Positions 25,852-44,185 of a stretch of DNA of 64,000 bases are shown here, in pieces. The notes under the pieces are model-generated. The model was given only the letters and a program-made list of their open reading frames with translations. It was not told the DNA's origin and searched no databases. Position 1 is the stretch's first letter; the number at the start of each line of letters is the position of its first letter. Origin of the DNA: Tricharina praecox (taxonomy: Eukaryota); assembly GCF_024521635.1 (NCBI RefSeq), contig NW_026250430.1, positions 1 through 64,000 of the forward strand, in the 5' to 3' direction. The position numbers were made by a program, and so were the translations under genes.

Positions 25852-25955
25852 GTTTCTGTGGTGTAATGGTTTGCACGCAGAGTATTCTTCACGATAGTAT
25901 CTGCTGGTACTGAAGTTTATCTGGAAAGGTCCTAGTTCGAATCTGGGCAGAACCG
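25852..25955 (+). ncRNA. Family B tRNA-like RNA with non-canonical anticodon arm, copy B1
   Basis: Acceptor GTTTCTG/CAGAACC, D-stem GTGT/GCAC, T-arm CCTAG-TTCGAAT-CTGGG. Shared flanks span ~25745-26006. Confidence 0.7.
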
Positions 25956-26232
25956 ATTTAATTTTCCCCTGCTGAGGGGATTTAAGCTTTCGCTTGGTGG
26001 GTTGGAGCGGTGCGGTGCTACCGCCCACTTCATTCAGGAATACCATAGCTCAGCTTCCGGCCCTCATCACGGTCTCATGTATTCCGACCCTCACCGCCAC
26101 AAGAGCACCAGATCGACGGAAGACAGCATCTCCCGCTACGCACAGTATCACTGGTATTTCAACGGGATTTACTACATCGCTCCCAGCCCGTTTGTCTCAA
26201 AGTTTTCGAGGGCAAGAATTGCCCGTCCGGAC

Positions 26233-26820
26233 CAGTGTTCTACATAGACCAGTCCCGACCAAATTTGGGTATGGTCGGGTCGGTCGGGATATATCCCTAC
26301 TAAAAAAAAGTCTGGTCTGGTCAGTCAGCTTATATCCCGACCAAAAAAAATCCAGGTCTGGTCGGTCGGGATATATCACGACCAAAAAAAAGTCTGGTCT
26401 GATCGGTCGGGATATATCCCGAACATAAATTTTCAAGTCGGGTCGGGATATATCCCGACCGACCAGACATAGGTCGGGTTTAGTCGGGTTAAGCAACAAC
26501 ATTTGACGTCGGAAATGCTCTAAGACCGCCAGAAATTAACGAAACTTTTTGCGGCTGGTAGAATTAAGAGTTAACCCGACGGCGGCCGACCTAGGCCGAC
26601 CGAGGCTGGCAAGGTCTGGTCGGTCGGGATATATCCCGACCAGAAAAAAATCAGGTCTGGTCCAGTGTTCTCCGTAGTCCAGTCCGTCCGTCCTGAGTCC
26701 CGGACTGGACTGGACTACATACATCCAGTCCGTCCGGAGGTGTCATTCGGACGGACTAGTCCACCAGTAAGGTCGCACGGGACGGACTGCAGTCTACTGC
26801 AGTCGACTGCCAAGACTGGT
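26233..26820. mobile_element. hAT/MITE-like DNA transposon end remnants with palindromic subterminal repeats
   Basis: CAGTGTTCT..TAG.CCAG starts at 26233 and 26663, with an inverted copy at 25654-25673. About six copies of the palindrome GGTCGGGATATATCCCGACC. No transposase or target-site duplication seen. Confidence 0.6.
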
Positions 26821-27444
26821 ACAAGGCGACAGAAATCACGATAGAAAGTCGGCGGCGTATTATCGGTGGTTGTGGTGGTTGAGGGGGGTATATGCGCACG
26901 GACTCAAGATGACACCGCGGCGTTGATGGCACTTAACAACTAATGTGGCGTAGGTTGTGGCGTAGTTTATTGCTCCTGGACGAAGATTGTGGCGCCGCAT
27001 ACTCGGTACTGGACGAAGATGGTGTCGCCGCTCACGGTTTTGCTGGCACTGGACGGAATTCAACACACGATAGTGGGAAATACAATCAAAGTTGGTGGGA
27101 TAAGTGCTGAAAATAGTGGCATTCTTGCAGACAGGATTTCTGCCATGGACACCACCGGATAGTCGCCGTCACAGACGGAAAGCGAAGGAACTGTTCACGG
27201 GCGATATCAGACGGTCTTGGTAAGCGGCGCGCAGGCATTGATTCCTCAATTGCTGCTACTAACTTCATGCTACATACTACCGTACATACTACTCCATCAC
27301 ATTTTTCTTAGGAGGGAACCTGTCCCTACGTTTCCAGCGGACTGATCAACCCCACTAGAAACAGTACAAACAGGAAGCACATATTCCGGTCCCCTTCTTC
27401 TCCTTCTCCTTCTCCTCCCCTCAGCCCCAGCGGCAGTGGGCCAC

Positions 27445-41071: not shown

Positions 41072-42767
41072 ATGAATGCCACCGAATCACCACCAGGCTC
41101 ATCAGTGCTTTACGCGTACCTGCAACTCGCGCTTCAGAACTGGCCACTGATTCTGACCGGCTGGTTCGTGCTCAGCTGCGTGCGGAGCATCTGGTTTCAC
41201 CCACTTAGCCGCTTCCCTGGCCCTGTCCGTACCTGATTCCTCTAGCCTCCATGACGTCTTCGGGCCGACTGCTGACTGCCACAGTTCTGGGCGAAGGTAA
41301 CGCGCTGGTACTGGGTGAGGGTTCTCACCTCCGACAAGCAACACCTCATCTTACAGGACCTCCACCGTCAATACGGCCCTGTCGTCCGAATCTCACCAAA
41401 CTTCGTTAGTGTTTCCGACCACCGCGCCGCAAAGGTCATCTACGGTCGCGGTCCCAATGCGCTCGCGAAGAGCGAGCAGTTTGGCTCCAGCTTTGCGCCC
41501 GATGTCGAGCCGCCAGTGTTCTTTGCCCGGACTCCGAAACTGCACCAGATGACGAGAAAAAGGGTTGCAGGCGCGTACACCATGTCGTCGATTCTGGAGA
41601 TGGAGTCGAGTATTACCGAGTTGGTGGAGGAGTTCATGGGTCACATGCGCAAGCACGCGAAGGAGGGGAAGGATATCGACTTTTGCGAGTGGGTTAATCA
41701 TCTCAACTTCGATATCATCAGCTCCCTCGGCTACGGCAATGCATTTGGGTTCATGAGGACTGGTCAGGACGTTAATGGATATGAGGAGGCGCTACATGTG
41801 GGCTCTTCCTACCTTCCTCTTAGCCGTAACCCCCAGCGCTGACTGTGCTCAAGGGCGGCACCCTCCTCTTCGCCATCTTCGGAACGTTCGGCGAGCTCGA
41901 AAAGATTTTAGGATTCATGAGCAGGACGTTGTTCAAGATGCCGGCGGACAAGGGAATTGGCCATCTCATGGCGCTCGCAGACAAGCTCATCCGAGATCGC
42001 GTCGAGAATCCAACTTCAAGGAAAGATCTACTGAATCATTTCCTAGCTGCAAAGCGTGAGGATGGCAGCCCATTACAACATGGAACAGTCGTGGGAGAGG
42101 TTATGGCTACACTCATCGCCGGGGCCGAGTGAGTAGTCATCCCGTCGAGCATGCACACGTCCTCGCTAAGTGAACCCACAGCACAACCGCGGCCTCGATC
42201 CAAGGCACTACTAAATATCTCATCACGCATCCGGAGGTGGCGGCGAAGCTCGTTGCCGAAATCGACTCCTTCCGCGCCTCCGGCCAGCTCTCGGATCCAA
42301 TCCAGTACAACGAGGCCGTCAAGTTCCCCTACCTCAATGCAATCATCAAAGAATCCTTACGCCTGTCTCCCTCCATCGGCTCCATCTTCTCTCGCATTAC
42401 TCCCCCGAGCGGCTTACACGTCCTTCCTGGCGTGTTCGTCCCCGGCGGTGCCGAAATCGGCTGCAACAACTGGATTATTGGCCGTGACCAGAGCCTCTAC
42501 GGCGAAGACGCCGAGGAGTTTAAGCCCGAGAGATGGCTGGAGAAGAACTACGCCGAGTGGGAGTTCTCATTTGGCGGAGGGAATAGAGTCTGCATTGGGA
42601 GAAATCTGGCGCTCACGGAGATTTATAAGTTCATCCCGACACTGTTCGGGAAGTTTGAGGTCGAGATGGTCAAAGATTGGGATTCGGAGAAGGCGGGGCT
42701 GTTTCTGTTTAAGCAAGGGTTGATGTTGAAGATGAAGGAGAGAACGTTCGGAGGCGTGGAAGAGTGA
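41072..42767 (+). CDS. Cytochrome P450 monooxygenase (4 exons)
   Basis: N-terminal anchor plus HPLSRFPGP, YGPVVRISPN, I-helix LIAGA, KESLR (ExxR), FKPERW and heme motif FGGGNRVCIG. Confidence 0.96.
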
Positions 42768-44080
42768 CGTTTCTTATCATATCATTCTATAGCTGCGAAT
42801 ATTAATTTTTGTTCTTCCGTCTCTACTGCTCTACGGAGGCACAGTATTCTCTCCCTACCGAACATGGGGTTCATCTCGTTGGCCCAAATTGATGCAAACG
42901 CCGCGTCTGTTATTTCATTCGTGCGTCAAGGTAGCTTGCGCGGTGGTCTAGGCGGTACGAATCACGGCATTCCCTCGCCGCGAAGGGCCAAGGCGAAGTT
43001 CGGCGACTTCGAACGCAGACTCGCATCGTCGTATCTTCTTTCTGGCCTTTGGGAAACACTTCTGCTGGGGTGCTGATTCCCGGCGAGCAATGATGGGCAT
43101 AGGTAGTCATTCTGGATAGATACAGCAGTAGAAAAGGGTGCGAAAACCGCCATCTACCACGCCCTCAGAAAACGTACCAGCGGTAACTGACGAGCCAGAG
43201 CAGAGCAGATCCTGTTCGCAAGCCTATTACAGTTCTTGCTCCTCGATCCGGCTTCCTCGCCAAAGAATCCTCGTTGCAACGATACTTGCATGCAGCATGC
43301 ACCCATGGAGGTCGTATGTGGTTAACGCGGTTCGCGGTAGTTCAGCACCTTGCCATGAGTGGTGAGCGCGGCCTCTTGGCGCTGTACTACCGCCCTCTGA
43401 ATCGCGTTGGGATCGCCAATGCATAGATACCGACGTCCTTTACGTAAGCTGGATATTCGAGTATGTACCGCTACATACATCGCGCAAACCCATAATGGAG
43501 CTGGGAGACAGCCCAGCTTTCAATATTCACGGCTCGGCTGCGCTGGGCGGACTGGGCTGGTGAGAATGCTTGCGTATTTATGGACTGACCGTTTGGACTA
43601 ACAAGTACCTAGTGAATCCGATTATCTAACCCAAACTGAGACAATCATGGATTCCGCTCGGATAGGCGCGGTGGTGGTGCAATGATCGCTTATCTTTCCG
43701 CACAACGTCAGGATTTCGTATGATCAGACTAGGTACCTACTGATGAATTTGTAGTATTTCCAACATCCCCGATAATCGCCTTCGCTGTATTATCAGGGTG
43801 TATTTCCTGATGCCATTACCGGTATATGTGTGCTCGAGGCAGAGCCAATAACGTCCCCGCACGCTGATCTTCTCGGACCAGTCCTACTGCACTGCTCATG
43901 ACCCCAAGGCTTCACCGACAAAGCTATCAATCAATCAGGTCTCCAGGCACCACTCCTTCAACCGGACTCCCCACCCGCTTACCTCGCCGCTGGTTTACCT
44001 TTTTCCTTTCCTCCAAATAAAGTTTCGCCCCAAAAAACGACCGCTTCATAACCATGGTAGAACAGTACCTAACATCCACT

Positions 44081-44185
44081 GGTTCTGTAGTGTAATTATT
44101 AGCACGTAGAGTATGCTTCACGCTGGTATCAGCTACGATACCGTAGTATATTTGAAAGGTCCCAGTTCGAATCTGGGCAGAAATA
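44081..44185 (+). ncRNA. Family B tRNA-like RNA, diverged copy B4
   Basis: GGTTCTGTAGTGTAAT..AGCAC, conserved CTTCACG, and AAAGGTCCCAGTTCGAATCTGGGCAGAA. The upstream flank is weakly alignable from ~43960. Confidence 0.6.

What the first reader, a model, noticed from the sequence alone, without database searches (positions are those of the whole stretch)
25852..44185. Family B: tRNA-Gln-like shell with a replaced, covarying anticodon arm (four copies)
Seen: copies at 25852(+), 34229(-), 38536(-) and 44081(+) keep the acceptor stem, D-stem and T-arm. The ~50 nt between the D- and T-arms form an extended arm: CAGA/TCTG, an invariant CTTCACG, and an inner hairpin. That hairpin is AGTATC-TGCT-GGTACT in B1/B2 (loop TTCT in B3) but GGTATC-AGCTAC-GATACC in B4, which preserves pairing. 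The canonical anticodon register differs between copies (TTC, GCT, TGC) and three of four lack U33. Known: the 5' end GGTTCTGTGGTGTAATGGTTAGCAC resembles eukaryotic tRNA-Gln. Inference: a tRNA mimic that is still processed but does not decode, or a pre-tRNA with a non-canonically placed intron.
Basis: partly seen in the sequence, partly recalled or inferred. Interest (0 to 1): 0.75.

Follow-up and report, generated by a model that had tools for sequence, protein, structure and literature searches.

The report
tRNA-shaped genes lacking an anticodon
A soil fungus carries a small family of genes that look like glutamine tRNA on the outside but have a long conserved hairpin where the anticodon should be, so they probably make a tRNA look-alike that cannot read codons and whose job is unknown.

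Summary
Four ~104-nt copies (25852+, 34229-, 38536-, 44081+) keep a tRNA-Gln-type acceptor, D and T shell. In place of the anticodon stem-loop they carry a 45-48-nt arm: CAGA/UCUG, an internal loop, CUUC/GAAG, a 5-nt bulge ACGAU, and a 5-6-bp hairpin.

The window is a nuclear fungal contig; one P450 exon hits Pezizales best. No whole genome and no RNA data were available.

One relative turned up in metagenome contigs (L019/L051). Its shell is intact, its arm has the same architecture, its inner hairpin has a different sequence, and its flanks are unrelated. Soil-run contigs hold further copies.

Removing any single intron never yields a canonical anticodon arm with one shared anticodon. The four window copies share a ~270-nt unit. 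Between B4 and B1-B3, flanks diverged 39-42%, the shell 13-16% and the arm 20-23%. I found no SINE, LTR or MITE hallmarks.

Best reading (about 0.5): a low-copy Pol III gene family derived from tRNA-Gln that encodes a non-decoding tRNA-like RNA, with some members decaying.

Main rival (about 0.27): an inert tRNA-derived repeat kept alike by gene conversion.

Covariation is thin: three lineages and 2-3 compensatory pairs. Expression is untested.

The parts
25852..25955 (+). Copy B1 of the tRNA-like gene (104 nt). The shell has a G2->T mismatch.
   Evidence: 123.1 bits. No Rfam tRNA match when its region was scanned alone.
34127..34229 (-). Copy B2 (103 nt). It is the best-kept copy. It lacks one base in the internal loop, and the window has a C.C mismatch in its T stem.
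   Evidence: Rfam tRNA 33.3 bits, cut-off 29, 39-nt insert; 117.6 bits. Every soil-run contig over 34136 reads the pairing base instead.
38433..38536 (-). Copy B3 (104 nt). The shell has only a G7.U66 wobble. Its minimum-energy fold is the full cloverleaf with the long arm.
   Evidence: 122.8 bits.
44081..44185 (+). Copy B4 (105 nt), older and decaying. G18/G19 are lost, the acceptor 3' end is AAAT, and there is one mismatch in CUUC/GUAG. The inner hairpin is kept through compensatory changes.
   Evidence: (102.6 bits).
25878..25923 (+). Extended arm of B1 that replaces the anticodon stem-loop: CAGA - GUAUU - CUUC - ACGAU - AGUAUC UGCU GGUACU - GAAG - UUUA - UCUG.
   Evidence: RNAalifold predicts the same arm on the MAFFT alignment.
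34159..34203 (-). Extended arm of B2.
   Evidence: the arm folded alone gives the same topology as the arm of L019.
38465..38510 (-). Extended arm of B3 (hairpin loop UUCU).
44107..44154 (+). Extended arm of B4: UAGA/UUUG with two wobble pairs, bulge ACGCU, hairpin GGUAUC AGCUAC GAUACC.
25735..26017 (+). Shared ~270-nt unit around B1 (about 117 nt upstream, about 60 nt downstream).
   Evidence: (I1-I3, I6).
34075..34347 (-). Shared unit around B2. It holds ATAAAT at -27..-22.
38371..38620 (-). Shared unit around B3, cut short at about -84.
43974..44242 (+). Shared unit around B4, 72-74% identical to the other three.
25957..25979 (+). Downstream of B1: T-runs (TTT AA TTTT), then the hairpin CCCCU GCUG AGGGG. 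T-runs also follow B2, B3, B4, L019 and a further contig copy.
   Evidence: The stretch is marginally similar to sequence downstream of L019 (3 of 300 and 5 of 300 shuffles reach the score).

Best explanation
Family B is a low-copy family of RNA polymerase III-type genes derived from a tRNA-Gln gene.

Each gene keeps what a tRNA needs to be transcribed and end-processed: A-box and B-box regions, a 7-bp acceptor stem, D and T arms, the A15-U48 and G18/G19-T-loop partners, and a downstream T-run. The anticodon stem-loop is replaced by a conserved irregular arm of about 15 bp. The product is therefore a tRNA-shaped RNA of about 104 nt that cannot read codons.

I infer that it is made by Pol III, trimmed by RNase P and RNase Z, and acts as a tRNA look-alike that binds some tRNA-handling factor. 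It is probably not charged, because no glutamine anticodon is present. B2, B3 and the relative L019 look active; B1 and especially B4 look like decaying members.

Shown: the anatomy, the copies, the absence of a usable anticodon, the slower divergence than the flanks, and the same arm architecture in a relative. Inferred: transcription, processing, lack of charging and any cellular role.
For: Shell:
- B2 matches Rfam tRNA at 33.3 bits (cut-off 29), with a 39-nt insert where the anticodon arm should be.
- RNAalifold on the plain MAFFT alignment predicts a cloverleaf plus the long arm.
- 96.6% of pair cells are standard pairs, against 26-43% when the partners are slid by 1-3 columns.
- The 5' 25 nt match human tRNA-Gln(CUG), printed in PMC11096365, at 23 of 25.

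Not a decoder:
- No single-intron removal gives a canonical arm in B1, B2, B3 or L019.
- Relaxed rules give no credible shared anticodon.

Constraint:
- B4 against B1-B3: flanks differ at 39-42% of aligned sites, the shell at 13-16% (one-sided Fisher p 1e-4 to 1e-3) and the arm at 20-23% (p 0.006-0.03).
- Among B1-B3 the arm differs at 2-4%, against 13-19% in the flanks. These pairs are not independent of one another.

Relative:
- 2 of 85 metagenome loci matching the pattern are true hits, and they are one locus (99.2% identical).
- The element is 77-80% identical to B, while the upstream flank is no better than shuffles.
- Its shell has no broken pair.
- Its arm has the same order of parts: 3-bp base, loop, CUUC/GAAG, bulge ACGAU, and the 5-bp hairpin GGUGC/GCAUC.
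- The inner hairpin has double compensatory changes at 2 pairs on the model alignment and at 3 pairs in my register taken from the base of the hairpin.

Pol III context:
- T-runs lie 1-15 nt downstream of all four copies and of L019, as for the four real tRNA genes.
- B2 (ATAAAT) and L019 (AATAAAG) have a TATA-like word at about -27. That is the same place and nearly the same word as upstream of the real tRNA-Ala gene.

Further copies:
- Soil-run contigs hold a copy alike to B2 only over 34127-34229 (16 other letters, 2 gaps), with other flanks and a T6 run 6 nt downstream.
- Every contig over 34136 reads the base that repairs B2's T stem.
Against: - There is no evidence of expression, processing or CCA addition.
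- Only three independent lineages were available (B1-B3, B4, L019). Covariation is not beyond the shuffle control: 33 of 500 shuffles reach the covariation score and 137 of 500 reach the number of pairs changed on both sides.
- Three of the four window copies carry a shell defect (B1 2-71, B2 T stem in the window, B4 several).
- The B1 region is not called tRNA by Rfam even when scanned alone.
- The copies sit in a repeat-rich patchwork beside a second tRNA-like repeat family.
- Short gene-conversion tracts among copies, or from real tRNA-Gln genes, could keep the element more alike than its flanks without any function.
- The divergence between the L019 organism and this one is unknown, so its conservation cannot be calibrated.
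- The thermodynamic z-scores of single copies are modest (-1.2 to -2.9).
Confidence: 0.5

Rival explanations
1. Inert tRNA-derived repeat. An old tRNA-Gln pseudogene with a scrambled anticodon region was copied a few times together with its flanks. It is kept superficially alike by gene conversion or by constraint on the A and B boxes alone. No RNA-level function exists.
For: - Shell defects occur in B1, B2 (window) and B4.
- There is no anticodon.
- The copies lie in a mosaic of low-copy repeats in which modules X, A and B are shuffled between 32-34 kb and 37-39 kb.
- A second tRNA-like family lies in the same window.
- Passages found in the tRNAscan-SE 2.0 paper (PMC8450103) note non-canonical cloverleaves from tRNA-derived repeats in a subset of fungal genomes.
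- Covariation is not beyond shuffles.
Against: - Homologous flanks of B4 diverged 39-42%, but the shell only 13-16% and the arm 20-23%.
- The arm lies outside the A and B boxes, yet it keeps its architecture and shows compensatory pairs in B4 and L019.
- L019 and B3 have no broken shell pair.
- T-runs are kept in every copy seen.
Confidence: 0.27
2. A real decoding tRNA whose precursor carries an unusual intron (misplaced, or more than one), or whose mature form has an enlarged anticodon loop.
For: - The arm has the layout of a eukaryotic pre-tRNA: a proximal stem; a loop with unpaired bases on the 3' strand; a helix in which CUUC pairs with GAAG, as an anticodon-intron helix would; a bulge on the 5' strand; and a variable distal hairpin.
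- The exon-like parts are more conserved than the hairpin.
- A real tRNA-Phe with a 33-35-nt intron lies 2 kb from B4.
Against: - Exhaustive single-intron removal gives no canonical arm in B1-B3 or L019.
- The canonical register gives TTC, GCT, TGC and TAC, and T at position 33 only in B2.
- The bases before GAAG (CU, UC, CC) covary with the hairpin, so no U33 is conserved in that register either.
- The helix between the two unpaired regions is 5-6 bp and the bulge 5 nt in the folds. This differs from the 4-bp helix and 3-nt bulges that I recall for the classic motif.
Confidence: 0.1
3. Part of a mobile element: a tRNA-derived SINE, the solo LTR of a tRNA-bearing miniature LTR retrotransposon (Helenus type), or a MITE of about 270 nt.
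For: - B1, B2 and B4 share the same 5' limit of homology, near GGACTC at about -117, and a similar 3' limit, which suggests a discrete ~270-nt unit.
- Helenus elements with tRNA-like LTRs exist in fungi (PMC10886601; abstract and Results part 1 read).
Against: - I saw no terminal inverted repeats, no TG...CA ends and no target-site duplications at the unit edges.
- There are no paired LTRs with a short internal region, and no primer-binding site for the element's own 3' end in the window: 1 match at 3 mismatches, which is the element itself.
- A SINE would not carry conserved sequence upstream of its start, and it has a body and a tail after the tRNA part. Here the similarity to L019 and to the extra contig copy ends at the tRNA 3' end.
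- Helenus was reported from Pucciniales and a few Agaricomycetes, not from Ascomycota.
- Copy number is low: 4 in 64 kb and a handful of contig pieces.
Confidence: 0.1

Closest known systems
Eukaryotic cytosolic tRNA-Gln genes (compared with human tRNA-Gln(CUG) as printed in PMC11096365)
   Same: The 5' 25 nt match at 23 of 25. The D arm GUGUAAUGGUUAGCAC is identical. The T loop is of the UUCGAAU type. The acceptor stem is 7 bp, and its two differences from the human gene pair with each other. T-runs lie downstream.
   Different: There is no CUG or UUG anticodon loop. A 45-48-nt three-helix arm stands in its place. The variable region is 7 nt in B1-B4 and 4 nt in L019. The discriminator is G or A, where the printed human sequence has T.
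Intron-containing pre-tRNAs, such as the tRNA-Phe(GAA) gene at 46000-46104 in this window
   Same: An insert sits between the two strands of a short stem that follows position 26. A helix involves bases just past the stem. The distal hairpin varies in sequence but keeps its structure.
   Different: Removing the insert leaves no 7-nt loop with U33 and a shared anticodon. The stem has only 4 pairs plus a G.A mismatch.
tRNA-derived repeats of fungi: tRNA-related SINEs, and Helenus TRIMs with tRNA-like LTRs (PMC10886601)
   Same: A tRNA-like sequence with A-box and B-box regions and no credible anticodon, present in several copies.
   Different: Copy number is low. There is no tail, no LTR pair, no primer-binding site and no target-site duplication. 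The similarity between lineages ends at the tRNA 3' end. The arm is structurally conserved.
Non-decoding tRNA-like RNAs such as mascRNA of vertebrates, or the tRNA-like domains of tmRNA and bacterial Y RNA (recalled, not tested here)
   Same: The idea is the same: a tRNA-shaped acceptor/T/D module recognised by tRNA enzymes, joined to something other than an anticodon.
   Different: Those RNAs are cut from longer transcripts or occur in other domains of life. Here the unit looks like a free-standing Pol III gene in a fungus. No sequence relationship was tested or is expected.

Membership tests
tRNA (Rfam RF00005) | Cloverleaf shell (acceptor, D arm, T arm) scoring above the curated cut-off | tested here: inconclusive
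   B2 scanned alone scores 33.3 bits against a cut-off of 29. The B1 region scanned alone gives no tRNA match at E<=10. Whole-window scans and ARAGORN find none of the four. B3 and B4 were not scanned alone.
tRNA (decoding) | 5-bp anticodon stem, 7-nt loop with U33 and purine 37, and one anticodon shared by the copies | tested here: not met
   The canonical register gives TTC, GCT, TGC and TAC, and T33 occurs only in B2.
Intron-containing tRNA gene | Removal of one intron restores a canonical anticodon arm | tested here: not met
   Every position and length was tried with variable regions of 4-7 nt: 0 solutions in B1, B2, B3 and L019, and only chance-like ones in B4. Relaxed rules give AGT and GTT in poor arms.
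Pol III type-2 (tRNA-type) gene | Internal A-box and B-box regions and a downstream T-run | tested here: met
   T-runs lie 1-15 nt downstream of all four copies and of L019, as for the four real tRNA genes. The A-box and B-box regions were judged by eye against recalled consensus words. B4 has lost the GG of the A-box region. Transcription itself was not tested.
tRNA-derived SINE | tRNA-related head followed by a body and a tail, flanked by target-site duplications, with no shared upstream sequence | tested here: not met
   The four copies share about 117 nt upstream. No duplications were seen at the unit edges. Similarity to L019 and to the extra contig copy stops at the tRNA 3' end.
Helenus (TRIM with tRNA-like LTR) | Two LTRs a short distance apart with a primer-binding site and polypurine tract, TG...CA ends and 5-bp duplications | tested here: not met
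   The same-strand copies B2 and B3 are 4.3 kb apart with other repeats and an ORF between them. No TG...CA ends or duplications were seen. The features are as described in PMC10886601.
tRNA-Sec | 9/4 or 8/5 acceptor/T geometry, long variable arm, anticodon UCA in a 7-nt loop closed by a 6-bp stem | tested here: not met
   By eye on the alignment. The invariant CUUCACG contains UCA, but its flanks do not pair in any copy, and the acceptor/T geometry is 7/5. The features are recalled, and no dedicated model was run.

The most novel reading that the evidence does not exclude
A previously undescribed class of fungal small RNA. It would be a free-standing, Pol III-made, tRNA-Gln-shaped molecule whose anticodon arm has been exchanged for a conserved three-helix arm carrying the invariant bulge ACGAU. 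It would be maintained by selection in at least two Pezizomycete-like fungi. It would work as a tRNA mimic, for example as a decoy, sensor or guide for a tRNA-binding enzyme, or as a dedicated substrate of the tRNA splicing machinery.
Probability: 0.35. Interest if true: 0.75.

Novelty: new variant of a known kind. Interest (0 to 1): 0.5.

Why it matters
Non-decoding tRNA look-alikes are known from a few systems, but as far as my five literature searches show, not as a conserved free-standing gene family in fungi. If these genes are expressed, they would be a tractable case of a tRNA scaffold put to another use, and they would show which tRNA enzymes read only the shell. If they are inert, they are a useful warning for tRNA annotation. 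One copy passes the Rfam tRNA cut-off, yet none can decode. Standard finders either miss them or would report an arbitrary anticodon.

Tried and rejected
- **Whole genome:** none is held for this window. The records behind L019 and L051 are not held either. I could therefore make no genome-wide copy census and could not find the organism's real tRNA-Gln genes.
- **RNA evidence:** no RNA holder is listed. The only runs listed hold the stretch as DNA contigs of soil metagenomes from one study.
- **Other collections:** a 23-nt pattern found nothing in genome contigs or viral contigs.
- **Metagenome scan:** 83 of 85 loci were chance matches in unrelated, mostly coding-looking sequence.
- **Earlier scan notes:** nothing for this genome or sequence. 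Two word searches returned nothing or only unrelated prokaryotic and mitochondrial cases.
- **Primer role:** I searched for a primer-binding site complementary to the element's 3' end plus CCA. The only match is the element itself.
- **Pairing with Family A:** duplex energy between the B arm and Family A RNA is no better than shuffles (252 of 300 and 169 of 300 shuffles do as well).
- **Repeat-induced point mutation:** rejected as the source of the differences. Transitions and transversions are equal in number, for example 37 and 38 for B2 against B4.
- **Other motifs, by eye:** box C/D (CUGA is present only in B1-B3 and absent in L019), a kink-turn at the bulge, a spliceosomal GT...AG intron (the remainder is too short for an arm), and tRNA-Sec. 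None fits.
- **Other Rfam families:** none hits the element or its flanks. All matches are far below their cut-offs.
- **Upstream flank of L019:** not similar to the B flanks (237-299 of 300 shuffles do as well).
- **Organism behind L019:** the ORFs in its 1.2 kb are uninformative.
- **Bacterial promoter and terminator scan:** run on a eukaryotic region, so it says nothing.

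
Full report
**What the window is.** It is nuclear DNA of a eukaryote.
- It holds an initiator-type tRNA-Met, tRNA-Gly, tRNA-Ala and a tRNA-Phe(GAA) gene with a 33-35-nt intron.
- Exon-sized ORFs match tyrosinase, a chromo-shadow domain, a thioesterase, pectate lyase and cytochrome P450.
- One P450 exon finds its best relatives in Morchella (52% identity) and Choiromyces (43%), followed by other Ascomycota. 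I therefore take the organism to be an ascomycete near the Pezizales. This rests on a single exon.
- No whole genome is held. The only public runs listed as holding the stretch are soil-metagenome DNA contigs from one study.

**The observation.**
- A covariance model built from them and one relative scores them 102.6-123.1 bits. With filters off over the whole window it finds no fifth copy. The four real tRNAs come next at 24-29 bits, and 12 further matches score 15 bits or less.
- The shell is tRNA-like. B2 scanned alone reaches the Rfam tRNA model at 33.3 bits (cut-off 29), with 39 nt inserted where the anticodon arm belongs.
- ARAGORN and the whole-window Rfam scans miss all four. The B1 region scanned alone gives no tRNA match.
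- The 5' 25 nt agree with human tRNA-Gln(CUG), as printed in PMC11096365, at 23 of 25. The 16-nt D arm occurs in 24 papers of the library. Several of the 15 listed are about tRNA-Gln to judge by their titles; I saw only that listing, except for the one paper opened.
- The arm parses identically in every copy: CAGA, 4-5 unpaired bases, CUUC, the bulge ACGAU (ACGCU in B4), a 5-6-bp hairpin, GAAG (GUAG in B4), four unpaired bases, UCUG.
- RNAalifold predicts this cloverleaf with a long arm from the plain MAFFT alignment. The arms of B2 and of the relative fold into the same topology when folded alone.

**Shell defects.** Not every copy is perfect.
- B1 has T at position 2, opposite C71.
- B2 has a C.C mismatch in the T stem.
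- B3 has only a G.U at 7-66.
- B4 has lost G18/G19 and has two changed bases at the acceptor 3' end.
- At 34136, every soil-run contig reads the base that restores B2's T stem. This includes the one contig that matches the B2 locus beyond the element with a single other letter. That defect is therefore a variant or an assembly difference.

**Is it a tRNA with an odd intron?** I removed one intron at every possible position and of every length. I required a 5-bp stem with at most one mismatch, U33, purine 37 and a variable region of 4-7 nt.
- B1, B2, B3 and the relative gave no solution. B4 gave three chance-like ones.
- I then relaxed the rules to two mismatches, U33 only, 0-2 bases at position 26 and variable regions of 3-8 nt. 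The only anticodons common to B1, B2, B3 and L019 were AGT and GTT, in poor arms with T at position 37.
- In the canonical register the anticodons are TTC, GCT, TTC, TGC and TAC.
- GAAG could be read as GAA plus G37. However, the two bases before it (CU, UC, CC) are part of the inner hairpin and change with it.
- The arm does resemble a pre-tRNA in layout, and an intron-bearing ancestor is a plausible origin. No ordinary decoder comes out of it.

**Relatives.** One scan of metagenome contigs with a pattern from the arm gave 85 loci, of which 2 are real. Those two are the same locus from two records (99.2% identical).
- The 100-nt element is 77-80% identical to the window copies. The upstream flank is no better than shuffled sequence.
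- Its shell has no broken pair. Its differences from the window copies in stems are G.U or compensatory.
- Its arm has the same order of parts and the same ACGAU bulge. Its inner hairpin is GGUGC-GAUG-GCAUC.
- Across the three lineages the inner hairpin shows changes on both sides of a pair at 2 pairs on the model alignment and at 3 pairs in my own register. This is too little to beat the shuffle control: 33 of 500 shuffles reach the covariation score.
- A stretch downstream of L019 resembles the stretch just after B1 and B3, including a small hairpin with one flipped pair. Only 3 and 5 of 300 shuffles reach the score for B1 and B3, against 39 and 131 of 300 for B2 and B4. I treat this as a lead only.
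- Contigs of the soil runs hold at least one further copy that is alike to B2 only across the element. It has different flanks and a T6 run, and there are pieces of other copies.

**Flanks and mobility.** All four window copies share a unit of about 270 nt, from about -117 to +60.
- I saw no inverted ends, no TG...CA ends and no target-site duplications.
- No primer-binding site for the element was found.
- A SINE would not carry a shared upstream flank. The Helenus TRIMs of fungi (PMC10886601; abstract and first part of Results read) need paired LTRs.
- The region between 32 and 39 kb is a patchwork in which this unit, a second tRNA-like family (A) and a third module occur in different orders.
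- The shared flanks give an internal clock. Between B4 and B1-B3, flanks differ at 39-42% of aligned sites, the shell at 13-16% and the arm at 20-23%. Among B1-B3, flanks differ at 13-19% and the arm at 2-4%.
- Transitions and transversions are equal in number, so repeat-induced point mutation is not driving this.
- Either selection or short gene-conversion tracts must be keeping the element alike.

**Pol III signals.** T-runs follow every copy within 15 nt, as they do for the four real tRNA genes. B2 and L019 carry ATAAAT and AATAAAG at about -27. The real tRNA-Ala gene has AATAAAG at -28. From recall, upstream TATA-like words matter for tRNA genes in some fungi. Here this is an inference.

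**Verdict.** The best-supported reading, at about 0.5, is a small Pol III gene family derived from tRNA-Gln. It would encode a non-decoding tRNA-shaped RNA with a conserved long arm, with active-looking members (B2, B3, L019) and decaying ones (B1, B4). The main rival, at about 0.27, is an inert tRNA-derived repeat homogenised by conversion. An unusual intron-bearing decoder (0.1) and a mobile element (0.1) are less likely. My five literature searches found no description of such a family. The library lacks most subscription journals, and no fungal genome collection could be searched here, so the family may be annotated somewhere I could not look.

Noticed in passing
window 7167-7320, 8513-8738, 32071-32278, 33165-33391, 37661-37843 (all +): Family A is a second multi-copy element (5 copies, mean column identity 78%). 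It has tRNA-like A-box and B-box words (GTGGTCTAGTGGTTTAGACC ... GGTTCAAACC), no acceptor pairing that I could see, a GC hairpin (CCACCC...GGGTGG), and T-runs at its end. The 146-nt stretch 33205-33350 folds with z = -3.9 (0 of 200 shuffles as stable). It lies tail-to-tail next to B2 and B3.
   Followed up: partly
window 46000-46104 (-): A tRNA-Phe(GAA) gene with a 33-35-nt intron after position 37. Rfam finds it at 56 bits, but the ARAGORN run missed it.
   Followed up: partly
window 34136: The window reads G (+ strand) here, which breaks the T stem of B2. All soil-run contigs covering the place read C (4 contigs in X1, 3 in X2, 1 in X3). This is a strain variant or an assembly difference.
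   Followed up: partly
window 26273-26687: Tandem and inverted copies of a ~41-nt unit (GGTCGGGATATATCCCGACC followed by an A-run), just downstream of B1. Weak matches to it lie near B2 and B3 (33843-33908, 38185-38220).
   Followed up: no
window 32638-33023 and 38716-39203: A third repeated module (72-78% identical). It lies upstream of A4 in one place and downstream of B3 in the other, so modules X, A and B are shuffled rather than duplicated as one block.
   Followed up: no
window 10137-10334: A (CACACT)n microsatellite of about 30 units.
   Followed up: no
window 2777-4210 (-), 15671-16021 (-), 20724-21644 (-), 27836-28228 (-), 41276-42764 (+): Exons with Pfam matches to tyrosinase, a chromo-shadow domain (HP1-like), 4HBT thioesterase, pectate lyase and cytochrome P450. 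B4, tRNA-Ala, tRNA-Phe and tRNA-iMet cluster just downstream of the P450 gene.
   Followed up: partly
window 45369-45400 (upstream of tRNA-Ala), 34251-34256 (B2) and L019: The word AATAAAG or ATAAAT lies at about -27 upstream of tRNA-Ala, B2 and L019. It is absent at that place in B1, B3, B4 and tRNA-Phe. It may be an upstream Pol III promoter word.
   Followed up: no
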